A stretch of DNA of 64,000 bases. Origin: Pseudogymnoascus verrucosus (Eukaryota). The DNA lies in the NCBI GenBank assembly GCA_001662655.1, contig KV460220.1. The stretch is one strand, 5' to 3'. A program made the position numbers and the translations under genes. Shown here in pieces: positions 36,730-63,951 of this stretch (positions within the stretch are counted from its first letter, which is position 1; each line of letters starts with the position of its first letter). Below the pieces are notes generated by a model. It saw only the letters and a list, made by a program, of their open reading frames with translations. It searched no databases and was not told where the DNA came from.

Positions 36730-38148
36730 ATGGCACGACCAGAGGAGACTGGCCATGGTTCTGCCACCTTTGGAACATTTGAAGACCTCGGCCTCGCAAT
36801 AATCGGCCTTGGTGTGGAATATCCGGCGTTCCAGCTCACCCCGACAGATCTCAGGACTCTGGTTAAGCGTCATTATCGGGACTCTCCTGCGTACGTCGTT
36901 CCTGAGCTTCACTAGGCACCACTAACTTAGTAGTATGTCCAAAGTCATGACGATTAACGACTACACCGGCATAGACATGCGCTCCTCGATCGGTACTATC
37001 GACGATCCATTTGTGAATAGGAAAAAGGCGCCAGCCATTGCCGAGCTTAGCAAAATATTTATGAAAGAAGGGGTTGCCCTCGCCGTTACCGCGGCACAAA
37101 AAGCCCTTACAGAGGCAAGAATAGATGTCTCTGATATTACACATATCGTTAGCACTACATGTACGAACAGCTCAAACCCGGGATTTGATCACTACGTATG
37201 TAAGAAGCTTGGAGTATCGCACACAGTTGAAAAAGTCTTATTACACGGCGTTGGCTGCGCGGGCGGGCTGGCAGCGCTTAGAACGGCTGCGAATATTGCA
37301 ATGGGTTCTAGTTTTCGGCGGAGACCAGCAAGAGTACTTGTAATGGCCCTTGAAATATGTACCTTTCTTGTCCGGAGCGAGATGGATAGCATTGACAAAT
37401 TTCAAGAAACGAGGATAGGCGTCTCGCTGTTCAGCGACTGCGCCAGCGCGCTAGTTTTGAGTAACGGGATTGGAGCTGAGTGCGTCGAGGAGCCGATATA
37501 TGAACTACTGGGCTGGGGCCATAAGATCATCCCCGATACCGACCGAGACTTGGGGTTTAATGTTGACCCATTAGGTGAGACATCCTGTAGAAAGGGGCTG
37601 AGTATTACACATACTGACGGACCATAGGCTGGAAAGTCGTCCTCTCACCTCGAGTTCCTAAGATTGCCGAGACAGCCGTAGACCCAATATTCAGAAACCT
37701 CCTATCATCAATACCTGGTCTCCCTCCTACCTACAACACCCCAGAGTCTTTCGACTGGGCCATGCACCCCGGCGGCGCCACAATCCTCTCTGGCGTAGAG
37801 AAAGCTATGGGAATAACGCCGGAGCACATGCGCGCATCATATGATATCTACATTAATCACGGAAACAGCTCCGCAGCAACAATCATAAGTGTCATGGATC
37901 GTCTACGACATAAAGATATGGATGCATGTGCCCCAGACGGAAAGGTCAAAGATTACGTAGTGGGATGCGCTTTTGGGCCAGGGATGGCCGTCGAGATGTG
38001 CATGCTGAAAAGGAACTTGAGCCATCGAGGAAAATCGCTACCAACCGGAGTAATTACACTGCCAGAGACGGAAAGTGAAGAGAGCAGGAGCGATGGCGAA
38101 GTTGAGCTAAGTTTGAGCGAAGTCTTAAACGGAGTCGATCTTGACTGA
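36730..38148 (+). CDS. Type III polyketide synthase (chalcone synthase superfamily, resembles Neurospora ORAS alkylresorcylic acid synthase), 3 exons
   Basis: LGLAIIGLGVEYP, STTCT, catalytic Cys in HGVGCAGG, LFSDCASA, His in MHPGGA, Asn in HGNSS, AFGPG. Introns 36891-36930/36933 and 37575-37627. Confidence 0.93.
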
Positions 38149-42628: not shown

Positions 42629-44640
42629 ATCGTCGGAACCGACCCTGACCTTCGCTCAGGGTCGGGGTAAGCGAACGGCGTTCGGGGAAGCGGTCGGCGT
42701 TCACCGCTATTTCATATCGCCGGCCATAGCCTCAACATATCTATAGCTAGTAATTTGTATACAACAACTGTGTAATTGAAATGGAAAACCCAATTTTGTC
42801 AGATGCTCGTAAATGGCTTGCTGCAAATCCATCGGAATCTGTTGCTACCGCAAGCCGGATTTTCAAAGTGCCAAAATCAACGCTCCAATCCTCAATTACT
42901 CGACTTAATCGTATAGGAGTCGGCCGTGGAGGCCAGAATAAGCTTCTTACAGCTACGCAAACGAAGGCTCTTAAGGAATGGATCACTACGCAGTATAAGC
43001 AAGGACTTGGAGCTACGAAGCAGATGACCTTTGCTGTTGTTTGCTATATTCTACGACCGAAGCCACCGCCTTCCTATAGCTGGCTTACAAAGTTCATTAA
43101 GAATGAGCTATCTGATTTTCATATTATAAAGACAAAGCCTATTGCTCAACACCGGGTTGAAGCCTAAGATGAAAGCGTCCTAGAAGAGTGGTTTTCGAAC
43201 TATCATGAGTTCGTTTCTACTCATAATATACAGCCTGATTCCATATGGAATATGGACGAGACTGGGTTTCAGATTGGAATTCCAGGGGGTGAGAAGGTTA
43301 TAGTTCCACACGGAGTTACAGAGCTATATACAGGGAGTCCTGAAAACCGTACTTTAATTACAGTAATTGAAGCTATATCAGCGAGTGGGAAAGCTACTCC
43401 GCCTGTACTCATTATTCCAGGCAAAGTCCATATGGAATCATGGTACCATAGAAGTCTTGTTGGTACAGAACAGGTTCTATTATCAGAATCAGGTTATACA
43501 AACGACGAGCTTGCGATTAAATGGCTTAATCACTTCATTTTCCATACGCAAAGCACCCCTATTTCAAACGCTAAATTACTACTATTAGACTCTCATAGTA
43601 GCTACCGAACGCCAGAGTTTACTATACTCGCAGCAGAGAATAATATCCTCATTTATACCTTTCCATCACATCTTACCTACGTTCTACAGCCGCTAGACGT
43701 TGGGGTTTTCCAGCCATATAAGCATTGGCATCGCGAAGCAGTCCATACTGCAATACGGAACTTCGACCTTGAGTATAACCTACGCTCTTTTATGAGGGAT
43801 CTTCCTATGATACGGGAGAAAACCTTTAAAGAGCTTACTATTACTCACGCATTTAAGAAGGCAGGAATATGGCCTATCGATTGTAGTATTGCGCTTTTAA
43901 AGCTATAGAAATATTCAAAGCCAGCTCCTACTTTACCAACGATTATACCAGCCTCTTTTCAAGAGTCCGAAGCGCAATTACAGCACTGGAAAGTGACGCT
44001 TCCAGTTCTACTCAGTAGCCCATCTCGACAGCGATATAACAACTGGGTTATTGGTACAGAAACGGTATTAGCTCACGGGCAACTTCAAGAATTCAACCTC
44101 TCGATTCTACAGCGGCAGGTTGACCAGCACAAGAATAGAGGCCGTAATAGCCGGTTACGCCTACAAATCGGAGGAGCTCTTACCGTAGATGAAGCCCGAG
44201 CTCTACAGACTGAAAAGGCAGAGCGAGTTGCGGAGAAAGAGGCAGCCAAAGAAGCCCGGATAGCTCGTCAGGCTAGCAACCAAGCCCGCAAGCAGCTCAA
44301 ACGGGCAGGAGTTGAAGCCCGGAAACAAGAACGCCTCCGGAAGAAGAGGGTAAAAGCCTATAAAAAAGATGGTAATCCAATTCCTCCGGAGGATCAAGAT
44401 CCAATTCCAGATCCAGAGGCAGAGAGCGAAAGTGGGATTGGGAGTGGGAGTGGGAGTGAGGGCCAGTTTGAGTGGGACGGATATGAGAATTACGAGTAGT
44501 TGATCAATTTAAGTACCTTTTCATATAAATTACTGTGTAGTGGTACTTATTCCTTCTGGTGTTCGTGAACGCCGACCGCTTCCGCGAACGCCGTTCGCTT
44601 ACCCCGACCCTGAGCGAAGCTCAGGGTCGGTTCCGACGAT
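42629..44640 (+). mobile_element. Complete Fot1/pogo-type (Tc1-mariner superfamily) DNA transposon, 2,012 bp
   Basis: 76-bp TIRs at 42629-42704 and 44565-44640 (2 mismatches). TA flanks at 42627-42628 and 44641-44642. Internal DDE transposase. Confidence 0.95.
42781..44499 (+). pseudogene. Pogo/Fot1 transposase with two in-frame premature stops
   Basis: One reading frame with N-terminal HTH, NMDETGF, LLLDSH, QPLDVGVF. Stops TAA at 43165-43167 and TAG at 43906-43908, no frameshift. Confidence 0.92.
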
Positions 44641-45022: not shown

Positions 45023-47314
45023 TTACGCTTCCTTCAATTGCTGCCCTTGGCCCTTTCCCCTCCGTACAAACTCTCTCAGCACATTATCAGTCATTCTAGC
45101 TACATTGTTGTCATATGTATCCCAGGCCATACTACCATACCAGTTGATACTGCCAACTGCGAATACCGCGCCACCTCCGGCAGTGTCATAATATACCAGG
45201 TCGCTTCGGACGCGGTCGCAGTTCGAACCCAGAGTGTTCACCATTGGGAACATAGACTCCTCATTGAAAAGTCCAAAGGTATCGTCATGCTGCTCGCTGC
45301 TTCCCAGGAGGATCGCATTGGTTGGAGTTCCAAGGTCAAAGTCCAAGCGATCAATCTCGTCACCGCTGGCACCACCGCCAAAGCCATTCTCGCCAATGGG
45401 CCCATTGGGATCGATGCCCTTAAAAACCCATGCAAGCGCAGGATCCTGAGCATATTTTGAGTTTATCCTATAAGGCTTTCCTTTGCCAGTACCGAACGCA
45501 CACGATCCCATGCCGAAGAGGTAGTTGGGAGCGCGGCCTCGGCTGCGCCAGAGTCCTCCCAGGTTCCCGGTGAGACCGTGCATTCGTTCCCCTGCGGGAA
45601 ACGTCACAGACCGACAACCTTGATCACCTTTACGGACTTCGAGACGATGAGGACGCTTGGAGTCAATGTCGGCGACCCAGTAGAAGCCATTGCCGCCCAA
45701 GTACATCAAGCTACCGCCTGACTTTGCAAAGCCGCTAAAAGCATCGAGGGTTTGGAGAGAATGGTATTCGGGATGACAGCTACTTATCATTGTCGTATAT
45801 TGGGAAGCTGCTTGATGGCCTCCAGTGTGCAAACAATGGTCAGTGATGGTATCATACGGAATTCCAGAGCGTTCCAGGAAGTCAATCATGAGAAGATCAG
45901 CGCTAAATTCGCGAGGTCGGCCCAGTGCCCAGTGCACGTATCCAGGCCTCAGATTTAATATGGGTCTAAGGGCACTAGAGAATGCAGTTGGGGAACCGTC
46001 TCTATGAACATCGTAAGCCGAGAGTCCTAAATCCGGGCGCCGATCTAGGCCCTTAAAATATTCGTGCTCATCTGCAATGCTGACCCCATCAGGGGTTGTC
46101 ATTGCTGATGATCTAGACATGTCGAACATCCGTTCGTTGGCATATGCAAGATATGTGAAAGTTGACAGAACCAACGCCACCCGTGCCGTAGATTTTTGAT
46201 TGGGACGAACGAAGAAGGTGATCATGTCGCTTACGCCGTTCTCACACTTGACTTCAACGGCATATGCACCTGAGCGAGCTGTTGATGGAATTGTGATGGA
46301 GAAATTCGTCCCCCATTTCGCGTCGTCTAGATCATCTTCATGGAAATGGATAGCTCCGTACCCGTAGGTCGCATGAGTCCAATCAGGCTGAGAACCATCC
46401 CAGTTGTATCCTTTCACGGCTCGTGTTGGTGCATTGACGAGGGCACCGTGGCGACTATTTCCAGAAACGTCGACAATAGAGTCGCTTGAAATATCGCGAG
46501 AAAAGTCATACTGGGCTAATATCCGCGGCGTTGGCCCTGTCGCCGTAAAAGAAGGGGAGTCAAGTCGGCCATTGAAAAAGCATGCCGGCTTGTAGCTCTG
46601 CTTGTCAACAGATTCGAACATGCCCGCACCAAACAGTAAGGCATTAGACCCTAAAGAGATCGGTGCCAACAAGTTATGCGTCGTCTCTTCTGCAGAAGGG
46701 GCAGTCTCTGCCAGACGGTTCAATTGCCGGATGTTCAAAGTGATCGTCTTCCCAACGAGGCTCATACGGATATGGAGCCAACGCCAGCGATTGATAGGGT
46801 ACTGACTCCGGATCACATCGACGTTGCTGCCAGTACCTATAAGGAACTCGAGTTTTGAATCCTTTATAACCACGGCAAATCCGGTTTTAGAACTTGCGTC
46901 AAGGCACGATATGATTGTTTGGCAATGGTCAACGTCAACCAAGTATGGTTGCACATGACAGTCTACTTCAAAGCCCTCTTCAGCTGCACAATGCGCTTCA
47001 GACCAGGAGGGTATAACAGCATGGGATCCCGAGCAGGCAGATTGATAGCAGCCATCATCGCGATTTCCCGAAGGGACTTCAGTTATCTCCTCCTCTTTGA
47101 CTGGTGGGGCATGAGTAGAACCGCTATAGCCCTGGATGAGGCGTACTAAACGATGAGAGTAGTTTTTCTCGGTGGATGAAATCTTGAAGAGTCAGCTTGG
47201 GAAACATGTCTCGTTCAATGATAAACACACTTTAATATCAACTGGCTCTCCTGGCGAAACAATCCATGGTTGAGCATAACCGATTATTTGAGGGTCTTTG
47301 TCGTTGTGAGACAT
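45023..47314 (-). CDS. N,N-dimethylformamidase large (beta) subunit-like protein, about 747 aa, 2 exons
   Basis: Exon 1 MSHNDKDPQIIGYAQPWIVSPGEPVDIK, intron 47230-47183, then RLVRLIQG, FNGRLDSP, YGAIHFHEDDLDD, TYLAYANE, GLSAYD, RPILNLRP, HPEY, YLGGNGFYW, GDEIDR, YDNNVARMTDNVL. These match my recollection of the bacterial DMFase beta subunit. Confidence 0.88.
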
Positions 47315-48603: not shown

Positions 48604-50274
48604 ATGGCTGATCAAAACATTCAATTCGTAGGGGATGCGAAATCGACTGCACCTTCAGCGACCCATTCAGATAAGCCAGCTACAGAGATGGTAGAGACGA
48701 TGCCGGTCACTCTAACAGAAGAAGACGTATGTTAATTACATACCCCATCAAAGAAACTCGCTGAACTCTCCTAGAATACTCGAATCAGGAGAAAAACTGA
48801 TAGAGTCATCTTGGCTCTATTGACCTGGGTCTACTTCTTGCAAGTTTTGGATAAGGCCGTCCTTGGAACTGGGGCGGTTTTCGATCTCGCGAAGAATGCC
48901 AACCTCACGGGTCATCAGTATTCCCTAATCGGGTCGATTTCGCCAATAGCGCAGTTAGCATGGCAGCCGTTCTCGGCCTGGCTGATTGTGAAGGTGCCGC
49001 ATCGCACATTAATGCCAATTCTGATTCTCGGTTGGGGTATTGCGGAAGCATCTATGGCTGCGTGTAGTTCCTTCTCTGGGTTGATCGCCTGCCGTTTCTT
49101 CCTCGGCCTTTTTGAGGCCGGCTGCATGCCTCTATTTGCGATCATCACAAGCCAGTGGTACCGTCGTGTCGAACAACCATTTAGAGTCTCTATCTGGTAT
49201 TCCACAAATGGTATATCGACGATAGTGTCTTCTGCGTTGTCTTATGGCCTTGGCCGTATTGTATCCAACGTGTTGTATCCGTGGCAAATGTAGGTTGTCC
49301 CCATCCACCGGCCACCATGAATACCTTGCTAATATCAACGCAGAATTTTCCTTTTCTGTGGACTTGTCACTATTATAACGGCTCCATTCGTCTACTGGAA
49401 ACTGGATAACGATATCGCGACAGCCCGTTTCCTTACCGAGGAGGAACGCCAACAAGGCATCGAACGCCTTCGGACAAACAATACTGGTGTTGAAGACTTC
49501 CACCAGTTTAAGTGGTCGCACGTTTTGGAAGCGGCTCTAGACCTGAAGACCTGGCTGTGGCTTGTGCTGGCCATGCTGCCGAACCTCGGGTCGGCTTTGA
49601 CGAGTGTCTTTGGGCCGCTCATTATTACTGGCTTTGGGTTCGATAAATTCCAGACATTGCTGCTGAACATTCCTTTCGGAGCCGTCCAAACGCTCGTGAT
49701 CATCGCTTCCTGCTGGGTAGCCAACAAGGCGAAGCTCAAGGGTGTTATCCTGCTTGGCTTCATGTTACCTGTGGTGGTTGGAACTGGGATGCTTTACGGG
49801 CTAAACCGGAATGCATCGGATCGACCAGCGCTACTCGTGGCGTACTATCTCACGGCCTTCTTGTTTGCAGCGAATCCCCTACTTCTCGTGTGGGTCGTCG
49901 GAAACACTGCTGGAGAGACCAAGAAATCCGTTACTCTCTCGCTATACCAGGCTGGTTCGTCTGCTGGAGCCCTTATCGGTCCGCTTCTATTTAGCGCAGA
50001 CCAGAAGCCAGAATATCGCCCCGGAATTGCGGGTGTTCTTGGTGTTTTTGTCGCCATGATTGTGGTCATCGTGCTGCAGCTCTTCCTCCTGATATACCTG
50101 AACAAGCAACAGGTGAAGAGGAGAATCGCAAACGGGAAGAGTGGCGTTATTGTTGATCGGTCTATGACAACCGAAGTTCATACTGATGGGAAGACTCGGG
50201 ACTTGCTGGCTGAGGAGATATTGCCCATGGACTTAACGGATAAGCAGAACGATGAGTTTGTGTATATTTACTGA
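48604..50274 (+). CDS. MFS anion:cation symporter, allantoate permease (Dal5)-like, 3 exons
   Basis: RRKTDRVIL, YFLQVLDK, RFFLGLFEAG, WYRRVEQPFR, ARFLTEEER, NTAGETKK, C-terminal DLTDKQNDEFVYIY. Introns 48727-48774 and 49290-49343. Confidence 0.9.
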
Positions 50275-54882: not shown

Positions 54883-56119
54883 ATGGCAGCTCTTCCAGAA
54901 GGCGTTGCAAAGTCGTTGGAGGAGACGAAGGTCGAGTATAAGCGTGTGGGAAACAGTGGTCTCCGGGTGTCGTCTCCAATTATTGGGTGTATGAGCATTG
55001 GAAACCCGGAGTGGGCAAACTGGGTGGCAGGGCCAGAAAAGGCCCTCCCACTCTTGAAAGCGGCATATGACCGAGGAATTAACACCGTTCGTCTTCTGCT
55101 CTCCGTTTAAAGAAAAATAATATTAACTCGAGGTAGTGGGATACAGCAAATATCTATTCCAATGGAGATTCTGAGAGAGTTATCGCTCAGGCGATCAAGA
55201 AATACGATATCCCACGTCACAAGTTGGTGCTGATGACGAAGGCATTTAGCTGCGTTGGAGAGCAGCAGTTTCACGCATACCCAATCCTGGATGAATTGAG
55301 GAGGACCAAGGACTACGTTAACCAGTTCGGTCTTTCGAGGACAGCGATTTTTACTGCACTGGACGCGTCCCTCAAGCGTTTGGAGACAGATTACATAGAT
55401 TTCTTCTGGATTCATCGTTTCGACCCAGATACGCCAATTGAGGAGACTATGCGTGCTCTTCATGACCTCGTCACTGCGGGGAAGATCCGTTACATTGGAG
55501 CTTCGTCCATGTGGACATACCAATTTGCCTCCATGCAGTTCTGCGCGGAAAAGAACGGGTGGACAAAATTCGTTGCCATGCAAGTATGTATAAACTATGG
55601 ACATCCAGTATGTTGAGCGATTTGAAGTGCTAATATCCGAACAGAACCGTTACAACCTACTGTACCGCGAAGAAGAGCGCGAGATGATTAAATTTTGCAA
55701 CGAAACAAACGTGGCTGTCATCCCAGTAAGTAAATATCATTTACTACTTCCACTACGTGGGCTCGTTGTTGCATGTTCTAACAATTGTCTGTCAGTGGGG
55801 TCCTCTTGCAGAAGGACAGCTTGCGCGCCCATTGCAAGTTCGCGGAACAACTACGCGTTCCGAAGGCTCCCCGCCCCTACGCAAAGAGTCCACGGAAATC
55901 ATCAACAGAGTAGAGGAACTGGCAAAGAAGAAGGGGTGGACTATGGCCCAGGTTACGCTCGCATGGACCATGAAGCGAGTAACGACTCCTATTATTGGCT
56001 TTAGCAGCGTCGAGAGGATCGAGGATGCTTTATCGGCACGCGGAAAAGAGCTTACACCTGAAGAAGAGAAATACTTGGAGGAAGTTTATACTCCTATGGA
56101 GATTGAGGGTCATTTCTAA
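54883..56119 (+). CDS. Aldo-keto reductase (aryl-alcohol dehydrogenase / Kv-beta-like subfamily), 4 exons
   Basis: [66 protein letters not shown]. Introns about 55087-55136, 55584-55644, 55726-55795. Confidence 0.92.
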
Positions 56120-57180: not shown

Positions 57181-58179
57181 ATGGCTACCATGGAGAAAGT
57201 ATTCGCTGGCTACAATGCGCGACAGAGCGTTTTAAACGCGAGCAGCAACCCTCTTTCGAAAGGGATTGCCTGGATCGAAGGAGAGCTCGTTCCGCTCGCC
57301 GAGGCTCGCATCCCGCTTCTCGATCAAGGTTTCATGCACAGCGATCTGACCTACGATGTTCCATCTGTCTGGGATGGGCGCTTCTTCCGCCTCGACGACC
57401 ACATCACAAGACTGGAGGCCAGCTGCACAAAACTGAGACTGAAGCTTCCTCTACCCCGAGAGGAGGTAAAGCAAATCTTGGTAGATATGGTCGCTAAGAG
57501 TGGCATTCGCGACGCCTTTGTCGAGCTCATCGTCACCCGCGGACTTAAAGGTGTCCGTGGAAACAAGCCAGCCGACCTAAAGAACAACCTCTACATGTTC
57601 ATCCAGCCTTACGTTTGGGTAATGGAACCCAAAGCCCAGCCTACCGGTGGCAGCGCCATTATCGCCCGTACTGTGAGGCGAGTTCCGCCTGGATCCATCG
57701 ACCCAACGATCAAGAACTTGCAATGGGGAGATCTCGTGCGCGGCATGTTGGAGGCGGAGGATCGTGGAGCCGATTATCCCTTCCTGACAGACGGAGACGC
57801 CAATCTCACTGAGGGATCGGGTTTCAACATTGTCCTGGTCAAGGATAACGTCCTCTACACCCCAGATCGCGGTGTTCTCCAGGGCGTTACTCGCAAGAGC
57901 GTTATCGATTCCGCCAAGGCCGCTGGCTACGAGATCCGCGTTGAGTATGTGCCCGTTGAGTTGGCCTTCCAAAGCGACGAAATATTCATGTGCACAACTG
58001 CCGGTGGCATTATGCCTATCGTAACTCTCGATGGCAAGTCTATCAATGGCGGCAAGGTTGGCCCTGTCACGAAGGCGATTTGGGATGGGTACTGGGCGAT
58101 GCATTACGATTCCGCATACAGCTTCGAGATCAACTATGAACAGAACAAGACAAACGGTGTGAACGGTTCAGCGAAATAA
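57181..58179 (+). CDS. (R)-selective amine transaminase (PLP fold type IV), intronless
   Basis: [28 protein letters not shown] Lys in [26 protein letters not shown]. Very similar to my recollection of the Aspergillus terreus (R)-omega-transaminase. Confidence 0.92.
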
Positions 58180-59093
58180 TGTGCTGGGCTTTCAAGGCCG
58201 TGCCTGATCGAATTTAGCTTCAATGTTTATTTTAAGTTAGGAGTTATAATAATATGAGGTATTAAAAAGAGTTTGTGCTATTATAATATTTTGTGCCGAG
58301 AATATAAATTAGTGAAATCACCAGGCAACAGTTTGAGGGCCAATGTAATTCTGAAAAGTTCTAATGATTCGCTGTAAGAATAGCCTTACATCTATGTAGT
58401 GATCCACAGCATTTTTTACCATGTTTCTCAGCACCAATGCTGGGTAATTTCTGTACATTAATTAAAATGCAAAAGGTAGTGTTGGTCTAATTCCGAGGAA
58501 GCTCCCTTAATGGTTTTCCTCTTGCGTTAAAAACAGACCAAATAATAATGCTCCATAGGATGCAGTATTTTCTAAAATGCAATATAAAAATTGGTTGCGC
58601 GAATAGTAGGAGGATCCATGGAGTTGGAGAAAATGAGGGGTATCTCCAACTTTCGGCTAGCGCCGGACTGCCCCGACCGAGACCGGCTTGGTCGTACGTA
58701 ATAAAAAATCTGCAAGGCGAAAGTAAACACAACAGTCTAATATTAGATGACAAAAACAGCATGTCTGTTTTAAGCACTCTGAACTCCAAAAGTTGTTTGA
58801 ACAATGGTATTCCTATTCTGGAAAAAAAAAGAGTCCAATTTGGAGAAGGTATGAGAAAATTGGGTCTGATTTCCCAATTGGGTAGGCAAGCCGCCCCGCC
58901 ATGGCGGGGTCAAGGGCCCTATTATTACTCATGGATAAGTTCGTACGATCTTTAAAACAACTCCAAAGATTCGTCTCCAGCATAGCGATTTCTAGATTGA
59001 ATTTAAGGCGCCAATTGGACGGCTGTTTCTCTGATCTTGTTCGCCATATTTTCTTCACTCTCGACAGCTTGAACCTTCTTGCCCATACCCGCC

Positions 59094-60380
59094 ATGGCCT
59101 CATTTAATTCGAGCGATAGCATTGTTATTGTTGGGTAAGTTTTCGAACGGCATTTGGACAATATTTTCTTCAAGGTACTGACTATTTGGAGTGCGGGCAT
59201 CGTTGGCCTCAATGTTGCTTTAGTTCTCGCCGAGAGAGGATATGGACAGTCGATAACTGTCATTGCCGAGCACCATCCGGGTGACACATCTATGACATAC
59301 ACATCGCCATGGTGAGTTTTCTATGGAAATGAATGATACTCCAGCTATGCTAATATCTCATCAGGGCGGGTTGCAATTTCTCTGCCATTTCTGGGAGTGA
59401 CGCCAACGCGTTGAAGTGGGATCGACTGGGTTACTCCCATCTCACCAAGCTCGCATCTGAGCGACCCGATGAGACTTTCGTTCACCGGACTCCATCGACT
59501 GAGTTATGGGACGAGAATGTCCCCCATGATAAAATTAAGGCCATGTCAGAGTACCTCGAAGACGTAAGGTCGCAATTCTCCTGGGCCATCGGGACTGTAC
59601 TAACTGGCCGCAGTTCAGAATTTTACCCGAAGAAGAGCTCCCTGAGCAGGTCAAATTTGCAGTCTCCTTCACTACATTAACCATTAATGCGCCTAATCAC
59701 CTTCAGTACCTCTACAACAGATTAAAACAGTATGGCGTGCAATTCTTACGACAGAAGATCCCCAGCATTCTATCAGCATTTGCGAGTCCGACGACCAAGG
59801 TCGTGTTTAACTGCATCGGTAACGCAGCAAAGACGTTGCCAGGTGTTGAAGATGCCAAGTGCTATCCAACCAGGGGCCAGGTTGTTCTGGTCAGGGCGCC
59901 TCAGGTCCGATCCAATGTTATGCGTCATGGCAAAGATTATGAGACATACGTGATTCCTCGCCCAGGATCCGATGGGAATGTTATTCTTGGTGGCTATATG
60001 CAAAAGGGGGTTGGGTAATATTAGACAAGTCCTGACAATGACCAGTCGCTAATGAAACTCTCAGTGACGGGGCAACTTACTCATATGAGACGGAGTCCAT
60101 TTTGGATCGCACTACACGGCTGAGCTCCGAGCTTCGTGAAATGGAGCCTCAAATCCTGGCCGTCTTTGCTGGACTTCGGCCTTCTCGCGAAGGTGGGGCC
60201 CGCATAGAGAGAGACGAGCTCATTGTTGCCGGTGACAAGCGAGTTATTGTTCACAACTATGGTGCAGGTGGTACTGGGTTCCAAGCTGGCTACGGCATGG
60301 CTATGGAGGCTGTTAAGACTGTCGAGGACGTATTGCGGGAGATTCGAAAGAACGATACTCGGCCAAGGCCTAAGCTATAA
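59094..60380 (+). CDS. D-amino-acid oxidase family FAD oxidase with PTS1-like C-terminus, 5 exons
   Basis: Spliced IVIVGAGIVG, YTSPWAG, PTRGQVV, YVIPRP, ILGG, GLRPSREGG, HNYGAGGTGFQ. Ends in PKL. Introns about 59135-59191, 59312-59364, 59564-59612, 60015-60064. Confidence 0.9.
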
Positions 60381-60864
60381 ATAATATGGGACATATAGGT
60401 TTGTCGATAGTCTTGGGTTTCGTAGCCTTCAAAGACGAATAATTCATTGCATTTTGAATAATCCGGCTCTTCTACATTCCCATCTTCTTTCATTTGTTTC
60501 TCGCGTGAATCTCGAAGTGCACCGGCGACGAGCGAGATTACAGCGAAGTACAATATTCTTTATCTCATCACTAACATCTATCTCCTTAGTTGGGGACCCA
60601 TTGAAATAGCGCGCCGATAAGACAATTAACTGCTCAAATATGGGCTTGAAATATTATATAAGGGCGTTCTGGTGTGTCGTCACTTTGTTGGTAAGTTGCC
60701 AGAAAGCCACACCTTATCGACGACACCACTCTGTCCCTGTGGGACCTTGTTGTTCGCTATCGGTGAGGTAGGGTGACATCCGATATCCGATATATCCGAC
60801 ATCCGACGAAATAAGCGACATTGGCGACCCGCGACCCTTGCCTTGGCGACCCTTCCCTTGGCTA

Positions 60865-60916
60865 CCCTCCCCCGCATACTCCCCTTTCCCCGCATAATCA
60901 CCTCCCCCCGCATACT
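60865..60916. promoter_or_regulatory. Three tandem CCCCGCATA boxes (CreA/Mig1-type SYGGRG on the minus strand) upstream of TF2
   Basis: CCCCGCATA at about 60870, 60888 and 60906. Confidence 0.45.
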
Positions 60917-60998
60917 TGGAGATCGGTCTCCTATCTTCTCTTATCCCAATTCGCAATCGCAATTGCAAAAAACTACGACAGCGAAACCATCCACCACC

Positions 60999-63217
60999 AT
61001 GCTGAAGGAGAAGAGGACCAACTCACTGGCATTTTCCCAGACTGATTGTCACACCTGTACGTCTGCAGGCCGCGCGTGTGATCGTCGGCGACCACAATGC
61101 TCGACTTGCCTTGGTCTCGGCGTGAAATGTGGTGGTTTTGTGACGCCACTGTCGTGGGATAATAATCGCATATGGCTCGGAAAGCCGTCCCAGAAAACGC
61201 GTTACATTTACGACGGCAGCAGGGGGAATGAGAGCCCAATGGCGTCGCCAAAGCCGCCGCCAAAGGCCTTTCGCTTTGTTGACGCAAGTTCCAGAAGGAA
61301 GAGGCGTCGCAGAGTTAGCCCAGTCTCCAGCCCTGAGGAAGAAATCTGCCGTGCCTCAGAATCAGAATCGCCCGAAGAAATCGGCATGGAATCATATCTT
61401 GCTCATCCATCTGGCTCGCTCCTAGATGACTTTGGTATGATACATACATGACTTATAATGGATATTGACCCTATACTAACCAAGATAATTGAATGTAGAT
61501 CCGTTAAACTTCGGTGATTGTGAGCTGCTGGATACTGTGATCCCTAATCCACAAGAATTCATGCCTGACTGGATGGCCGCGACATTCCCTGGGCAGGAAA
61601 GTCAAAATCAAATGATCTTGACTGCCCAACCTTCTTCGAACATTGTTGGCCATGGATCCGAGGATGTCTTTACTCAAAGCCTCATGGACTTACTCGAGAC
61701 GGTTTCTACCCATCCATTTGAGAGCCACCAACTGGAGCCACCTCGTCTTGTAGCTTCTCCAACCCGACAACCCCCGTCCGAGATCTCTACCGAGTTGATT
61801 CCTAACCATATTGGAAACCAACATGAGCGCCTTTTTCAGATGTGTAAGTTGCGAGCTTCCTAGCCATTCTACCCTCGATCTGGTTGAACATTGGAACTGA
61901 TATTTCAGTTTAAAGATGATACGGAGCTATGTGTGCTACCATTGACGTCTGATGTGGCCTTCAACCCGTTCCGCTGTCGACGTCAGGTACTACAGGGGTC
62001 TCGCCTTCTTTTCCACGCGATATTGGCACTATGTTGCCGGCATCAGAACCATTTGACGGGCACTTGGGCCAAAGAAGCCTCTGAGCACCGAACGAAGGCT
62101 GTAGAGCTACTGGACAGCGCGTCTAAGAGTGACCAAGTCACCAAAATTGGACTACACGTCTTGGAACCAATCTTGGTCATGTTTACCTTGGATGTATGAT
62201 ATTCCATTTTATAAGACTTACCATTTTTTACTTGAGCTAACTAGAGTTTCAGTGCACACTCTCCGCCACAGGGCCGTGGAGTGGACATTTAATGCGCGTG
62301 AGATCGGTTTTAGACGCCTGCGGAGGGCCTCTGGCGCTCGATAACTCGCGCGTGCGCTCGCAAGTTGGAATGCTATTCTGGTAAGTCAAGATGTGGATCA
62401 GCCTCCTGAGGTAGCGCAAACTGTTCAACTAACGCAAACCAGGTGGGATGCTACTCTGGCACTGATCTCCCGACAGGGCATAATCATTGATCAGTCGTAC
62501 CTTGACCACCTGATGCTCAGTCAAGGCCAAGACGAATGGTCTTTCTACGACCTAACCGGCTGCCCCGGAGACCTCTTCGTGCACCTAGTTCAGCTATCTG
62601 AGCTGGCGAAGCAAAGAGAGTTGGCCGCATGCATGACCTGGCTCACCTTCGATCTGTCGCCAGTGATCAAGATCGAACGCGAAATCCAACAATGGCAAAG
62701 CAGCCTATTCGCCGATGCATACGGTTCGAATTTCGATACAATCGTGGAAAATGCGTCGGAATCGGACGCCGAAGCCGACATCGAGGAACGGTTCCACGCC
62801 AAGCAGGACCGGTACCACTGCGCAGAGGCGTGGCGGTACTCATTGCTGATCTATATCGAGCGAGTTTTCCGCTGGGACAGGAAGTGCCCTCGGCCTCTGA
62901 TCCTGACGTGGCTGGTTCGGAAGACGATGGATCACGTCCGTTGTTGTCGACGCACGTCTCAAACGCAGAAACAGCTCCTGCTGCCCGTATTCCTTGCAGG
63001 GAGCGAGATGACCGATGAGGAAATGCGCGGGTTTACGCGGCAATACTGCAAGTGGTGGGCCAACAGGAGCCGATATAATATGTTCAATTCGGTGTCATCG
63101 CTGCTGGAGGATATTTGGGAAGAGGGACACTCACATGCGTGGTGGGGGTCTGTGATTGATCGGAAGACAAGGAGTACTGGAGTCGGTGACCCAGGTGTTC
63201 AATTCCTGTTTGGATAA
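60999..63217 (+). CDS. Zn(II)2Cys6 transcription factor with Fungal_trans_2-type C-terminus (TF2, ACR-2-like), about 5 exons
   Basis: DCHTCTSAGRACDRRRPQCSTCLGLGVKCGGF, WSFYDLTGCP, AEAWRYSLLIY, QLLLPVFLAGSE. Introns near 61435, 61844, 62194 and 62381. Confidence 0.87.
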
Positions 63218-63951
63218 CGGTGAGGCTACTGAGTGCCTGGTGGTGCTCCATGTGTATGAATATCCCTGGCGTTGTTTTAGCGAATTGGGCTTCGTAATAC
63301 GATCTCATTTCCTGCATATATATTGTGCCAAGCAAACGATCGTGCTCGCATTCCCCCGCAATTCATCTTGATCGACGTGAACTTTGTTCAATTGCAAAAG
63401 GGCTCTGAAATGCGACCAAAAAATGCGAAAGCACAGTAGAGGATTTAAGAGAAGAGTAGAATAATATCATCGGGTGGGATTGTGCCAGTGACTTGGGAAG
63501 GTACATACAGTGAAGTACTGTAACCAAGTATGCGGGCCGAAACCAGCCCATCGGTCTCATGGGTGCGAACCCTGAACCTTCGGTCCCCAACAATTTCCTG
63601 CGAGACCGATCACATCGGTCCCTGACGTCAAATTGCGATATCTTATTGTGTCACTTGTGAATGTCAACACTTTCCAAGTGCTATATCAAAACTCTGCCAT
63701 AATTCGCTATGGCCCGAGTCCTGTCACCAGGCTCTGTCTCTTTATGCCCCTAAAATAAGTTGTAAATATGTATAATATTGAGGTAGATTATTATTTTATC
63801 CACTCGGATCGGAGGGTCAAATTTCAGCCACTTCTCCGCCAAAACAAAGGAAAATTACAAGGGAACACAAGTATGTGCTGTGTGTTGTGAACATTACACG
63901 CCTCCACCACTCCAACTCCATTATCTCCAATCAACCTCTTACAACCAAGCC

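What the first reader, a model, noticed from the sequence alone, without database searches (positions are those of the whole stretch)
57181..63622. (R)-amine transaminase, D-amino-acid oxidase and TF2 sub-module: a clue to the native role of fungal (R)-ATAs
Fungal (R)-selective transaminases are widely used biocatalysts, but their physiological substrate is, to my knowledge, unclear. Here one sits directly beside a DAO-family oxidase and a TF. (R)-ATAs produce D-alanine when pyruvate is the acceptor, and a DAO could oxidise that D-alanine back to pyruvate plus ammonia. That would close a cycle releasing nitrogen from (R)-amines (inference). The DAO ends in PKL, a PTS1-like signal consistent with a peroxisomal H2O2-producing step.
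Basis: inference. Interest (0 to 1): 0.7.

Follow-up and report, generated by a model that had tools for sequence, protein, structure and literature searches.

The report
Amine transaminase paired with D-amino-acid oxidase
A fungal (R)-amine transaminase, an enzyme type much used in industry whose natural job is unknown, sits beside a peroxisomal D-amino-acid oxidase and a regulator, and the same pairing recurs in many fungi and some bacteria, which points to a natural two-enzyme route for stripping nitrogen from amines.

Summary
Window 57181-58179 encodes an intronless 332-aa fold-IV transaminase, about 85% identical to crystallised fungal (R)-amine transaminases. 59094-60380 encodes a five-exon, 358-aa D-amino-acid-oxidase-family flavoprotein ending in PKL. 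60999-63217 encodes a five-exon Zn2Cys6 regulator. An aldo-keto reductase lies just upstream. Contigs lacking the introns confirm the oxidase and regulator gene models.

Transaminase orthologues lie next to a D-amino-acid oxidiser of three separate lineages:
- the window's own oxidase clade, in Leotiomycetes, Sordariomycetes and Eurotiomycetes;
- the classical fungal DAAO clade, which includes a characterised D-Ala-oxidising enzyme, in Aspergillus and Penicillium;
- DadA D-amino-acid dehydrogenase, in Alphaproteobacteria whose transaminases are about 60% identical to the fungal ones.

In metagenomic fungal contigs, 7 of 19 distinct informative loci show the pairing, in three different gene arrangements.

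Best reading (confidence 0.6): the transaminase moves amine nitrogen onto pyruvate, giving D-alanine. The oxidase then regenerates pyruvate and releases ammonia and H2O2. This would be a natural counterpart of a known in-vitro cascade.

Not shown: that this oxidase clade accepts D-Ala (it has an invariant Arg-His loop of unknown meaning), what the native amine is, and whether the genes are co-induced.

The parts
54883..56119 (+). Aldo-keto reductase gene directly upstream of the transaminase. It is a possible sink for the carbonyl product.
   Evidence: PF00248 on two exon frames, E 2e-33 and 2.4e-13. Three intron skips appear in contigs of X2 and X3: 55086>55137, 55583>55645 and 55724>55796. 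My exact exon join did not stay in frame, so the exon ends are approximate. An AKR homologue lies upstream of the ATA in 2 of 80 metagenome loci, L004 and L006.
57181..58179 (+). Intronless gene for a 332-aa fold-type-IV (R)-amine-transaminase orthologue. It has no PTS1.
   Evidence: Residues H53, Y58, V60, S62, F113-V114-E115, R126, K178, W182 and T272-T273-A274 are present. The C-terminus is not PTS1-like. Unspliced contigs of X2 and X3 cover it.
59094..60380 (+). Five-exon gene for a 358-aa D-amino-acid-oxidase-family flavoprotein ('clade A') ending in PKL. Exons: 59094-59134, 59192-59311, 59365-59563, 59614-60014, 60065-60380.
   Evidence: Clade-specific invariant loop.
60999..63217 (+). 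Five-exon gene for a 653-aa Zn2Cys6 / Fungal_trans_2 transcription factor (TF2). Exons: 60999-61433, 61498-61843, 61916-62193, 62253-62379, 62442-63217.
   Evidence: An orthologue lies next to the oxidase in another Pseudogymnoascus genome, and a fused oxidase+TF2 gene model exists. TF2-like genes lie beside the ATA in L001, L012 and L013.
60779..60808 (.). Three overlapping CCG-N(4-6)-CCG words upstream of TF2. This is a candidate Zn-cluster site and is unverified.
   Evidence: It was found in this promoter only and no control was run.

Best explanation
The transaminase and the oxidase form a co-located catabolic pair that works through a D-alanine/pyruvate shuttle.

Proposed steps:
1. The transaminase, which has no peroxisomal signal and is therefore probably cytosolic, moves the amino group of a still unknown (R)-configured amine onto pyruvate. 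This gives a ketone or aldehyde plus D-alanine.
2. The oxidase, which carries a PTS1-like tail and is therefore probably peroxisomal, oxidises the D-amino acid back to pyruvate. This releases ammonium for assimilation, and H2O2 in the compartment that holds catalase.
3. The net reaction is that of an amine oxidase, with catalytic pyruvate.
4. The upstream aldo-keto reductase could reduce the carbonyl product.
5. The Zn2Cys6 factor downstream is the likely pathway regulator.

Shown here: the gene identities, the splicing, and the recurrent adjacency of the transaminase to three lineages of D-amino-acid oxidiser.

Inferred: the direction of flux, D-Ala as the shared metabolite for this oxidase clade, the compartments, and the roles of the AKR and TF2.
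For: (1) Enzyme identity. The ATA is about 85% identical to crystallised (R)-ATAs. It keeps the active-site residues checked. Which residues define the motif is recalled from the literature, not read here.

(2) Published fungal genomes, window-type oxidase (clade A). I looked up 5 species pairs.
- 4 have consecutive protein accessions: Fusarium nematophilum (also consecutive locus tags ACJ41O_014298/99), Colletotrichum truncatum, Aspergillus cavernicola and Thelonectria olida.
- 1 pair is four apart: Cephalotrichum gorgonifer.
- Two more cases turned up incidentally: Pseudogymnoascus sp. 05NY08 (VF21_04621/22), and Aspergillus arachidicola, which has consecutive accessions and a 670-aa fused ATA+oxidase gene model.

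(3) Published fungal genomes, classical DAAO (clade B). ATA and DAAO accessions are consecutive in 7 of 10 species for which both were obtained. The seven are Penicillium cf. griseofulvum, P. griseofulvum, P. vulpinum, Aspergillus pseudonomiae, A. caelatus, A. bombycis and A. transmontanensis.
- The clade-B gene in L012 matches the characterised Rasamsonia DAAO (7ct4) at E 1.9e-87.
- That enzyme oxidises D-Ala with kcat 189 per s and Km 2.7 mM (PMC6697736, passages read).

(4) Metagenome contigs, which are the less biased sample. 7 of 19 distinct informative fungal loci have a DAAO-family gene as a neighbour.
- Downstream in tandem: L002, L017.
- Upstream in tandem: L009.
- Upstream and divergent, 550-890 bases away: L005, L010/L011, L012, L013.

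(5) Bacteria. A DadA orthologue lies within 2.1 kb of the ATA homologue in 10 of 54 bacterial-like metagenome loci.
- 3 of 3 scanned score 509-663 bits against NCBIfam NF001933 'D-amino acid dehydrogenase', whose cut-off is 383.
- In species-representative genomes, a DadA orthologue lies in the fetched 6-kb flank in 10 of 31 loci whose ATA is at least 52% identical.

(6) ATAs linked to clade A and to clade B are interspersed in the ATA tree, needing 3 and 4 changes respectively. The partner type was therefore swapped or differentially kept.

(7) PTS1-like tails occur on 68 of 102 clade-A and 38 of 45 clade-B oxidases. None of the 12 ATA C-termini checked (11 database ATAs plus the window's own) ends in [SAP][KRH]L; one ends in GKL.

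(8) The same enzyme pair is an established in-vitro pyruvate-recycling cascade: DAAO with (R)-selective transaminases, Truppo et al. 2009, as cited in PMC9543090 (passages read).

(9) Contigs lacking the introns of AKR, oxidase and TF2 exist in runs X2 and X3, and contigs of the same runs cover the ATA. For the oxidase, intron-less contigs also exist in X1.
Against: The window's oxidase clade has no characterised member.
- It is about equally distant from a DAAO (7ct4 1.8e-42; 1c0i 5.4e-38) and from a D-aspartate oxidase (9vpf 2.6e-37).
- Its active-site loop carries an Arg in 102 of 102 sequences and a His in 99 of 102. That Arg aligns with Arg216 of human D-aspartate oxidase and with an Arg of 9vpf in the HMMER alignments (residue roles recalled).
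- In the alignments to the two fungal DAAOs, the specificity position instead falls on a Val.
- The substrate could therefore be acidic or otherwise polar rather than D-Ala.

The linkage is not universal.
- 12 of 19 informative fungal metagenome loci lack it. Five of these (L004, L006, L015, L019/L020, L023) were examined on both sides.
- 4 species present in both the ATA and clade-A lists have the two genes on different contigs.
- 3 of 10 clade-B species are not consecutive.
- 0 of 49 bacterial loci with more distant ATAs (35-47% identity) have a DadA orthologue nearby.
- 8 of the 31 closer bacterial loci instead carry a class-III aminotransferase directly upstream, 6 of them with a family-5 solute-binding protein before it; a ninth locus (L099) shows the binding protein only.

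The species pairs sent for accession look-up were chosen because they shared a contig length, so those fractions are biased upward. Related species are not independent events. The metagenome and genome collections share some contigs (for example L063 and L096). Co-induction was not tested.
Confidence: 0.6

Rival explanations
1. This is a D-amino-acid utilisation module rather than an amine module. The transaminase's native donors are D-amino acids. It funnels them to D-alanine, or equilibrates them with their keto acids, and the oxidase or DadA then deaminates the product. Amines are only a side activity that chemists exploit.
For: All three partner lineages are D-amino-acid enzymes. Amino-acid permease genes lie next to the pair in L012 and next to the ATA in L014. 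Reviews state that fungal DAAOs mainly serve the use of exogenous D-amino acids (PMC9844085, passages read). NCBIfam places the ATA near D-amino-acid and branched-chain transaminase models, all below their cut-offs.
Against: The ATA keeps the residues that distinguish amine transaminases from D-amino-acid transaminases in all 85 sequences aligned (32 fungal, 53 bacterial-like): H/R53, Y58, V60, no Arg at position 62, and R126 (the meaning of these residues is recalled). It is about 85% identical to enzymes crystallised as amine transaminases. A broad-range DAAO would not need a transaminase in order to use D-amino acids.
Confidence: 0.17
2. The same shuttle logic applies but with a different carrier. 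The window-type oxidase is specific for acidic or other polar D-amino acids, like a D-aspartate oxidase. It is coupled to the transaminase through oxaloacetate/D-Asp, 2-oxoglutarate/D-Glu or another keto-acid pair, not through pyruvate/D-Ala.
For: Clade A has an invariant Arg224-His225 loop, and a Met where classical DAAOs have the second active-site Tyr. Both features are shared with the D-aspartate oxidase 9vpf in the alignments, and they are conserved across 102 sequences. Several orthologues are named 'D-aspartate oxidase' by their sources. PMC9844085 says such names are unreliable.
Against: A conserved Glu (96 of 102) sits two residues before the conserved Tyr. 9vpf has an Arg at that position, which I recall as its substrate-binding Arg243. 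A Glu there argues against acidic substrates. Known fungal (R)-ATAs use pyruvate/D-Ala (recalled). The other two partner lineages handle D-Ala.
Confidence: 0.15
3. The adjacency is inherited synteny with no functional coupling. The genes are neighbours only because an ancestor had them side by side.
For: Many positive cases are close relatives (Aspergillus section Flavi, Penicillium, Sphingopyxis). More than half of the informative fungal metagenome loci lack the pairing.
Against: Three different oxidiser lineages are involved, with three different arrangements. The pairing occurs in two domains of life. Partner types are interspersed on the ATA tree. Other window neighbours (TF1, MFS, DMFA2-like) gave no match in any of the 80 metagenome loci, so general synteny is not conserved while this pairing is.
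Confidence: 0.08
4. The role is biosynthetic. The transaminase installs an (R)-amine on a ketone intermediate of a secondary metabolite, using D-Ala as the donor.
For: A type III polyketide synthase and a P450 lie in the same window. Some bacterial neighbours are tailoring-type enzymes such as PhyH, sulfotransferase and SDR.
Against: The PKS is 19 kb away. It is separated from the ATA by a decayed transposon and by unrelated genes. No PKS or NRPS gene was found within 4.5 kb of the ATA in the 23 fungal-like loci scanned. An enzyme that destroys D-Ala would work against amination.
Confidence: 0.04

Closest known systems
Fungal (R)-selective amine transaminases with solved structures (for example Aspergillus terreus 4CE5, 8ZM7, 6XWB, 4CMD, 4CHI)
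   Same: Same fold-IV family. E-values are 1e-156 to 1e-189, and the printed alignment to 8ZM7 is about 87% identical. The active-site residues are the same.
   Different: Nothing distinguishes the enzyme itself. What is new is its genomic context. None of the papers found or read mentions that context.
Classical fungal D-amino-acid oxidases (Rasamsonia emersonii 7CT4, Rhodotorula gracilis 1C0I) and D-aspartate oxidases (9VPF, human 6RKF)
   Same: PF01266 fold. N-terminal GxGxxG motif. The carboxylate-binding Arg and the first Tyr are conserved. C-terminal H-N-Y-G-x-G-G motif and a PTS1-like tail.
   Different: The window's oxidase belongs to a separate clade, about 33% identical to clade-B proteins. 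It has its own invariant loop, M-R-H-G ... Y-E-T-Y, and a Tyr-Met in place of the Ser/Thr-Tyr of classical enzymes. Its substrate is unknown.
Engineered (R)-transaminase plus DAAO cascade for kinetic resolution of amines with catalytic pyruvate (Truppo, Turner and Rozzell 2009, as cited in PMC9543090)
   Same: The same two enzyme types and the same proposed chemistry: amine plus pyruvate gives ketone plus D-Ala, and D-Ala plus O2 gives pyruvate, NH3 and H2O2.
   Different: That system was assembled by chemists from unrelated organisms. Here the two genes are natural neighbours with a regulator, and the oxidase carries a peroxisomal signal.
Bacterial dad (D-alanine/alanine catabolism) genes with DadA D-amino-acid dehydrogenase
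   Same: DadA orthologues, above the NCBIfam cut-off, lie beside the bacterial relatives of the ATA. DadA converts D-Ala to pyruvate and ammonium (established knowledge).
   Different: In the classical system D-Ala is supplied by the racemase DadX (recalled). Here a transaminase stands beside DadA. I did not search the loci for a racemase.
Fungal catabolic gene clusters with a pathway-specific Zn2Cys6 regulator (for example quinate and proline utilisation clusters; recalled)
   Same: A few same-strand catabolic enzyme genes next to a Zn2Cys6 / Fungal_trans_2 factor. TF2-like genes recur beside the ATA in L001, L012 and L013.
   Different: No inducer, binding site or regulatory dependence is known. 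No shared promoter motif was found.

Membership tests
(R)-selective amine transaminase (fold type IV, PLP) | Class IV aminotransferase fold | tested here: met
   PF01063, E 1.2e-45, residues 59-281.
(R)-selective amine transaminase (fold type IV, PLP) | Signature residues that separate (R)-ATAs from BCAT and D-amino-acid transaminases: H/R53, Y58, V60, no Arg at 62, F/Y113-V-E115, the flipping R126 and the catalytic K178. The definition is recalled from Hoehne et al. 2010 and from the A. terreus structure papers, which were not read here. | tested here: met
   The window has H53, Y58, V60, S62, F113, V114, E115, R126 and K178. The same pattern holds in all 85 sequences aligned: 32 fungal and 53 bacterial-like.
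(R)-selective amine transaminase (fold type IV, PLP) | Close similarity to experimentally characterised members | tested here: met
   8zm7 E 8.5e-189, 4ce5 E 8.1e-187, 6xwb 'R-selective transaminase' E 7.6e-184.
(R)-selective amine transaminase (fold type IV, PLP) | (R)-selective amination or deamination with pyruvate/D-Ala | not testable with these tools
   Needs an enzyme assay.
D-amino-acid oxidase / D-aspartate oxidase family (FAD) | PF01266 fold with an N-terminal dinucleotide-binding GxGxxG | tested here: met
   PF01266 on 3 of the 4 exon frames scanned. G-A-G-I-V-G spans exons 1 and 2. The only PDB matches at E below 1e-10 are 17 DAAO or DDO sequences.
D-amino-acid oxidase / D-aspartate oxidase family (FAD) | The Arg and Tyr that bind the substrate's alpha-carboxylate (R285 and Y223 of the Rhodotorula enzyme; roles recalled) | tested here: met
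   R295 and Y232 align to them. They are conserved in 101 of 102 clade-A sequences each. The second Tyr (Y238) aligns to Met249, with a Tyr one residue earlier.
D-amino-acid oxidase / D-aspartate oxidase family (FAD) | Orthology to an enzyme of known substrate range (DAAO or DDO) | tested here: not met
   About equally distant from 7ct4, 1c0i and 9vpf, and 31-34% identical to clade-B DAAO. It is a member of the family but cannot be filed as either EC 1.4.3.3 or EC 1.4.3.1.
D-amino-acid oxidase / D-aspartate oxidase family (FAD) | C-terminal PTS1 | tested here: inconclusive
   PKL has Pro at position -3, which is outside the PROSITE PS00342 pattern quoted in PMC6697736. However, 68 of 102 orthologues end in [SAP][KRH]L, and 10 of these begin with Pro. 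Localisation was not tested.
Fungal Zn2Cys6 transcription factor | Zn(2)-Cys(6) cluster plus a fungal-specific TF middle domain | tested here: met
   PF00172 E 3e-5; PF11951 E 3.4e-13 and 1.7e-5. The 653-aa open model comes from spliced contigs.
Co-regulated fungal metabolic gene cluster | Gene adjacency conserved beyond close relatives | tested here: met
   The pairing is seen in Leotiomycetes, Sordariomycetes and Eurotiomycetes, and in 7 of 19 informative metagenome loci.
Co-regulated fungal metabolic gene cluster | Co-expression under a common inducer, dependent on the cluster's TF | not tested
   Only contigs were available. They show that spliced forms exist but cannot give expression levels.

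The most novel reading that the evidence does not exclude
The (R)-amine transaminase family has a conserved native partner. Wherever it went, a D-alanine-oxidising flavoenzyme was recruited next to it: DadA in Alphaproteobacteria, and two different peroxisomal DAAO lineages, recruited independently, in fungi. D-alanine, which fungal central metabolism does not otherwise use, would act as an orthogonal nitrogen carrier. It would take amine nitrogen from a cytosolic transaminase into the peroxisome, where it is released as ammonium. Together the two enzymes would be a 'split amine oxidase'. The monophyletic fungal ATA clade, 57-71% identical to alphaproteobacterial proteins, may descend from one interdomain transfer, followed by replacement of the partner enzyme.
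Probability: 0.4. Interest if true: 0.78.

Novelty: new variant of a known kind. Interest (0 to 1): 0.66.

Why it matters
(R)-selective amine transaminases are workhorse biocatalysts, but none of the papers my searches retrieved assigns them a physiological role. A conserved genomic partner turns that open question into concrete experiments:
- assay the neighbouring oxidase;
- delete either gene, or TF2;
- look for inducing amines.

It would also explain why this family is tied to the unusual pyruvate/D-alanine pair. It offers naturally matched ATA/DAAO pairs for cofactor-free kinetic resolutions. Finally, it defines a large fungal DAAO-family clade with an invariant Arg-His loop, for which I found no characterised member.

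Tried and rejected
- **Whole genome of the window.** Not held, so paralogues and genome-wide frequencies could not be counted.
- **Earlier findings of this scan.** Four look-ups returned nothing.
- **RNA runs.** No RNA holder is listed. Co-induction could therefore not be tested, and contig depths are not used to rank genes.
- **Shared promoter motif.**
  - Four window promoters were compared. Only 4 AT-rich or unremarkable 8-mers were shared by at least 3 of them, and no common CGG/CCG pair was found.
  - Eleven promoters, including seven from metagenome loci, were compared, and no word occurred in more than 4 of the 11.
  - No shuffling control was run. I take no motif from this.
- **Other window genes as cluster members.** TF1, the MFS transporter at 48775-50274 and the DMFA2-like gene gave no tblastn match at E below 1e-8 in any of the 80 metagenome loci. 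I leave them out of the module.
- **Oxidase substrate read from alignments.** The specificity position falls on Val in the alignments to the two fungal DAAOs, but the neighbouring Arg aligns to the Arg of two D-aspartate oxidases. This stays unresolved.
- **Source names.** Names such as 'D-aspartate oxidase' are rejected as evidence, since PMC9844085 reports such annotations to be wrong in yeasts.
- **AKR exon model.** My join did not stay in frame, so only approximate bounds are given.
- **Literature.**
  - PMC5169069 and PMC9309667 were searched for relevant passages and held none on this pairing.
  - Searching for the gene tags ATEG_10023 and VC83_01631-33 found 0 papers.
  - No supplementary files were opened.

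Full report
**What is in the window**

The window is fungal DNA. The oxidase model is 357/358 identical to a protein that its source names as coming from a Pseudogymnoascus species. A database protein is 100% identical to the transaminase. No whole genome is held for the window.

Four genes lie head to tail on the + strand between 54.9 and 63.2 kb:
- an aldo-keto reductase, about 54883-56119;
- the transaminase, 57181-58179;
- the oxidase, 59094-60380;
- a Zn2Cys6 factor (TF2), 60999-63217.

Further upstream lie a second Zn2Cys6 factor on the other strand, an MFS transporter, a DMFA2-like gene, a decayed pogo-type transposon and a type III PKS.

**The transaminase**

It is an intronless 332-aa class IV aminotransferase (PF01063, E 1.2e-45). 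Its best solved relatives are all fungal (R)-amine transaminases, with E 8.5e-189 for 8zm7 and 8.1e-187 for the Aspergillus terreus enzyme 4ce5.

It carries H53, Y58, V60, S62, F113-V114-E115, R126, K178, W182 and T272-T273-A274. I recall these residues from the literature as the marks of (R)-amine transaminases. The same pattern, allowing H/R, S/A/G and F/Y, holds in all 32 fungal and 53 bacterial-like relatives that I aligned. Across 19 sequences from several fungal classes the mean column identity is 80%. It has no PTS1-like end.

**The oxidase**

I built a five-exon model by eye. It gives 358 residues and differs from annotated protein P0001 at one residue. All four introns are skipped, with GT..AG ends, in contigs of runs X1, X2 or X3.

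The protein matches only D-amino-acid and D-aspartate oxidases among solved structures, at similar distances: 7ct4 1.8e-42, 1c0i 5.4e-38, 9vpf 2.6e-37, 6rkf 3.9e-30. The carboxylate-binding Arg and the first active-site Tyr are conserved.

Among 102 full-length orthologues, which I call clade A, the active-site loop is nearly invariant and differs from that of 45 classical fungal DAAOs, clade B:
- Arg224 in 102 of 102;
- His225 in 99 of 102;
- Tyr229 in 100 of 102;
- Glu230 in 96 of 102.

In the alignments to the two fungal DAAOs, the position known to set side-chain preference (Met213 in Rhodotorula; Ile232 in Rasamsonia according to PMC6697736) falls on a Val. In the alignments to two D-aspartate oxidases, Arg224 falls on their Arg. 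The substrate therefore cannot be read from sequence. PMC9844085 warns that homology and annotation do not separate DAAO from D-aspartate oxidase.

The tail PKL is outside the PROSITE PTS1 pattern quoted in PMC6697736. However, 68 of 102 clade-A proteins end in [SAP][KRH]L, as do 38 of 45 clade-B proteins.

**The regulator and the RNA evidence**

No run is on record as RNA. Even so, runs X1, X2 and X3 hold contigs that skip every oxidase intron. X2 and X3 also skip four TF2 introns and three AKR introns. The DNA-like run X12 covers the same places unspliced. The simplest reading is that these contigs are transcripts.

The TF2 joints give an open 653-codon model. X2 and X3 contigs also cover the intronless transaminase. 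In X2 and X3 one contig runs from the oxidase into TF2, and one annotated Pseudogymnoascus protein of 979 residues is a fusion of the two. Contigs cannot give expression levels, so co-induction remains untested.

**Is the linkage conserved? Published genomes**

The protein searches return source names, accessions and contig lengths. I used species that appear in both an ATA list and an oxidase list.

For clade A, five pairs that shared a contig length were looked up:
- Four have consecutive accessions: Fusarium nematophilum (also consecutive locus tags), Colletotrichum truncatum, Aspergillus cavernicola and Thelonectria olida.
- One pair is four apart: Cephalotrichum gorgonifer.
- Four further species have the two genes on different contigs: Phialemonium atrogriseum, Aspergillus nanangensis, Ilyonectria robusta and Trichoderma asperellum.
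- Two more positives appeared incidentally: Pseudogymnoascus sp. 05NY08, and Aspergillus arachidicola, where one assembly even has a 670-aa fused ATA+oxidase gene model.

For clade B, 7 of 10 species with both accessions are consecutive. The three that are not are Penicillium salamii (ten apart), A. parasiticus and P. coprophilum.

I take consecutive accessions as a proxy for neighbouring genes. This rests on how annotated genomes are accessioned, not on coordinates. The pairs were also pre-selected, so these fractions are upper estimates.

**Is the linkage conserved? Metagenome contigs**

A scan with an ATA alignment returned 80 loci. About 26 look fungal, with GC 0.44-0.57 and 66-78% identity. 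After merging near-duplicates and dropping two loci that are too short, 19 distinct loci are informative.

Seven of the 19 have a DAAO-family neighbour:
- clade A downstream in tandem, as in the window: L002, L017;
- clade A upstream in tandem: L009;
- clade B upstream and divergent, 550-890 bases from the ATA start: L005, L010/L011, L012, L013.

The clade-B gene of L012 matches the characterised Rasamsonia DAAO at E 1.9e-87. That enzyme oxidises D-Ala with kcat 189 per s and Km 2.7 mM (PMC6697736).

Five loci lack an oxidase on both sides: L004, L006, L015, L019/L020 and L023. Seven more could be judged on one side only: L001, L014, L016, L022, L024, L029 and L037.

TF2-like genes flank the ATA in L001, L012 and L013, and an AKR flanks it in L004 and L006. 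TF1, the MFS transporter and the DMFA2-like gene of the window gave no match in any locus.

**Bacteria**

The other 54 metagenome loci are bacterial in gene content and GC. Their ATAs are 57-71% identical to the window's and keep the signature residues.

- A DadA orthologue lies within 2.1 kb in 10 of the 54, and within 9 kb in 2 more.
- The three DadA candidates scanned against NCBIfam score 509-663 bits for 'D-amino acid dehydrogenase', against a cut-off of 383.
- In one genome per species, 10 of 31 loci with an ATA of at least 52% identity have a DadA orthologue in the 6-kb flank. These include Caulobacteraceae, Sphingopyxis, Hyphomonadaceae and Phenylobacterium.
- None of the 49 loci with ATAs of 35-47% identity has one.

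The two collections share some contigs, and several positives are close relatives, so the number of independent events is smaller than these counts.

Other bacterial contexts also exist. Among the 31 closer genome loci, 8 have a class-III aminotransferase directly upstream, 6 of them preceded by a family-5 solute-binding protein. PhyH or 2OG dioxygenases and MFS transporters are also seen.

**Tree**

Fungal ATAs form one clade (SH-aLRT 99, 33 rows) beside the bacterial groups. ATAs linked to clade A and to clade B are interspersed, needing 3 and 4 changes, although many inner branches are weak. The DadA-linked rows fall on one side of a branch. The tree is unrooted, so the direction of any interdomain transfer is open.

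**Interpretation**

Three kinds of enzyme that deaminate D-amino acids stand next to this transaminase family, in three arrangements and in two domains of life. The one metabolite that known members of the family make from their usual acceptor, pyruvate, is D-alanine.

Chemists already combine DAAO with (R)-transaminases so that pyruvate is needed only in catalytic amounts (PMC9543090, citing Truppo et al. 2009). The most economical reading is that the gene pair is the natural form of that cascade. It would release ammonium from amines, with H2O2 made in the peroxisome. I put this at 0.6, and functional coupling of some kind at about 0.8.

The main reservations are:
- the unknown specificity of clade A;
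- the absence of the pairing in more than half of the sampled loci;
- the lack of any expression or biochemical test.

**Novelty**

Six full-text searches found no paper that reports this linkage or a native role for the family. A look through a recent survey of (R)-ATAs found none either. Subscription papers and supplements were not seen. The parts are ordinary members of known families. The recurrent pairing, and the pathway it implies, appear to be new.

Noticed in passing
window 42754-44499 (+): Three stop-to-stop ORFs follow one another in a single frame and carry Tc5 HTH and DDE_1 transposase domains. This is a pogo/Tc5-type transposase broken by in-frame stops. It sits in the most AT-rich part of the window (GC 0.435), which would fit RIP-like decay.
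   Followed up: no
window 36926-38148 (+): A type III polyketide synthase (chalcone/stilbene synthase N- and C-terminal domains) split over two frames, so probably with one intron. It lies 19 kb from the transaminase.
   Followed up: no
window 45023-47191 (-): A 721-aa ORF with an N,N-dimethylformamidase beta-subunit-like C-terminal domain (E 1.2e-100) and weak laminin-G matches. An MFS transporter and a second Zn2Cys6 factor lie nearby. None of these is conserved near ATA genes elsewhere.
   Followed up: partly
L008, L018, L021, L025-L080; L081-L111: Alphaproteobacterial proteins are 57-71% identical to the fungal (R)-ATAs and keep the signature residues, and the fungal sequences form a single clade. 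This is unusually close for proteins of two domains of life and suggests an old horizontal transfer. The direction is unknown.
   Followed up: partly
L083, L091, L093, L097, L100, L102, L103, L108; also L028, L030, L044, L050, L053, L066, L079: A recurrent bacterial arrangement places a class-III aminotransferase (glutamate-1-semialdehyde-aminomutase-like, below cut-off) directly upstream of the class-IV ATA. In most of these loci a family-5 solute-binding protein gene precedes it, and in some a ThuA-like gene follows the ATA. The two transaminases are of opposite fold types. They might act together on both enantiomers of one amine.
   Followed up: partly
L013:6391-7425 (-) and L012:14412-14879 (-): Vitamin-B6 genes lie near the PLP-dependent ATA in two fungal loci. 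An SNZ/Pdx1 PLP-synthase gene sits next to the DAAO in L013, and a pyridoxamine-phosphate-oxidase-like gene lies 3.4 kb downstream in L012.
   Followed up: no
proteins P0410 (670 aa), P0397 (979 aa); P0010, P0065, P0083: Annotated fusion proteins betray gene neighbourhoods. P0410 is ATA plus clade-A oxidase in Aspergillus arachidicola, and P0397 is oxidase plus TF2 in a Pseudogymnoascus strain. In three other fungi clade-A-type oxidases are fused to an Abhydrolase_3 esterase domain, so some paralogues have a different neighbour.
   Followed up: partly
L018:11084-16415 (-): One bacterial locus (ATA 67% identical) has a different set of genes downstream: a ThiO/sarcosine-oxidase-beta-like FAD enzyme, a sarcosine-oxidase-alpha-like protein with a BFD 2Fe-2S domain, a RidA-family protein and a second PF01266 protein. 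This resembles opine or D-hydroxyproline dehydrogenase gene sets (recalled).
   Followed up: no
window 60779-60808: Three overlapping CCG-N(4-6)-CCG words about 200 bases upstream of the TF2 start codon. This could be an autoregulatory Zn-cluster site. It was not found in the other promoters.
   Followed up: no
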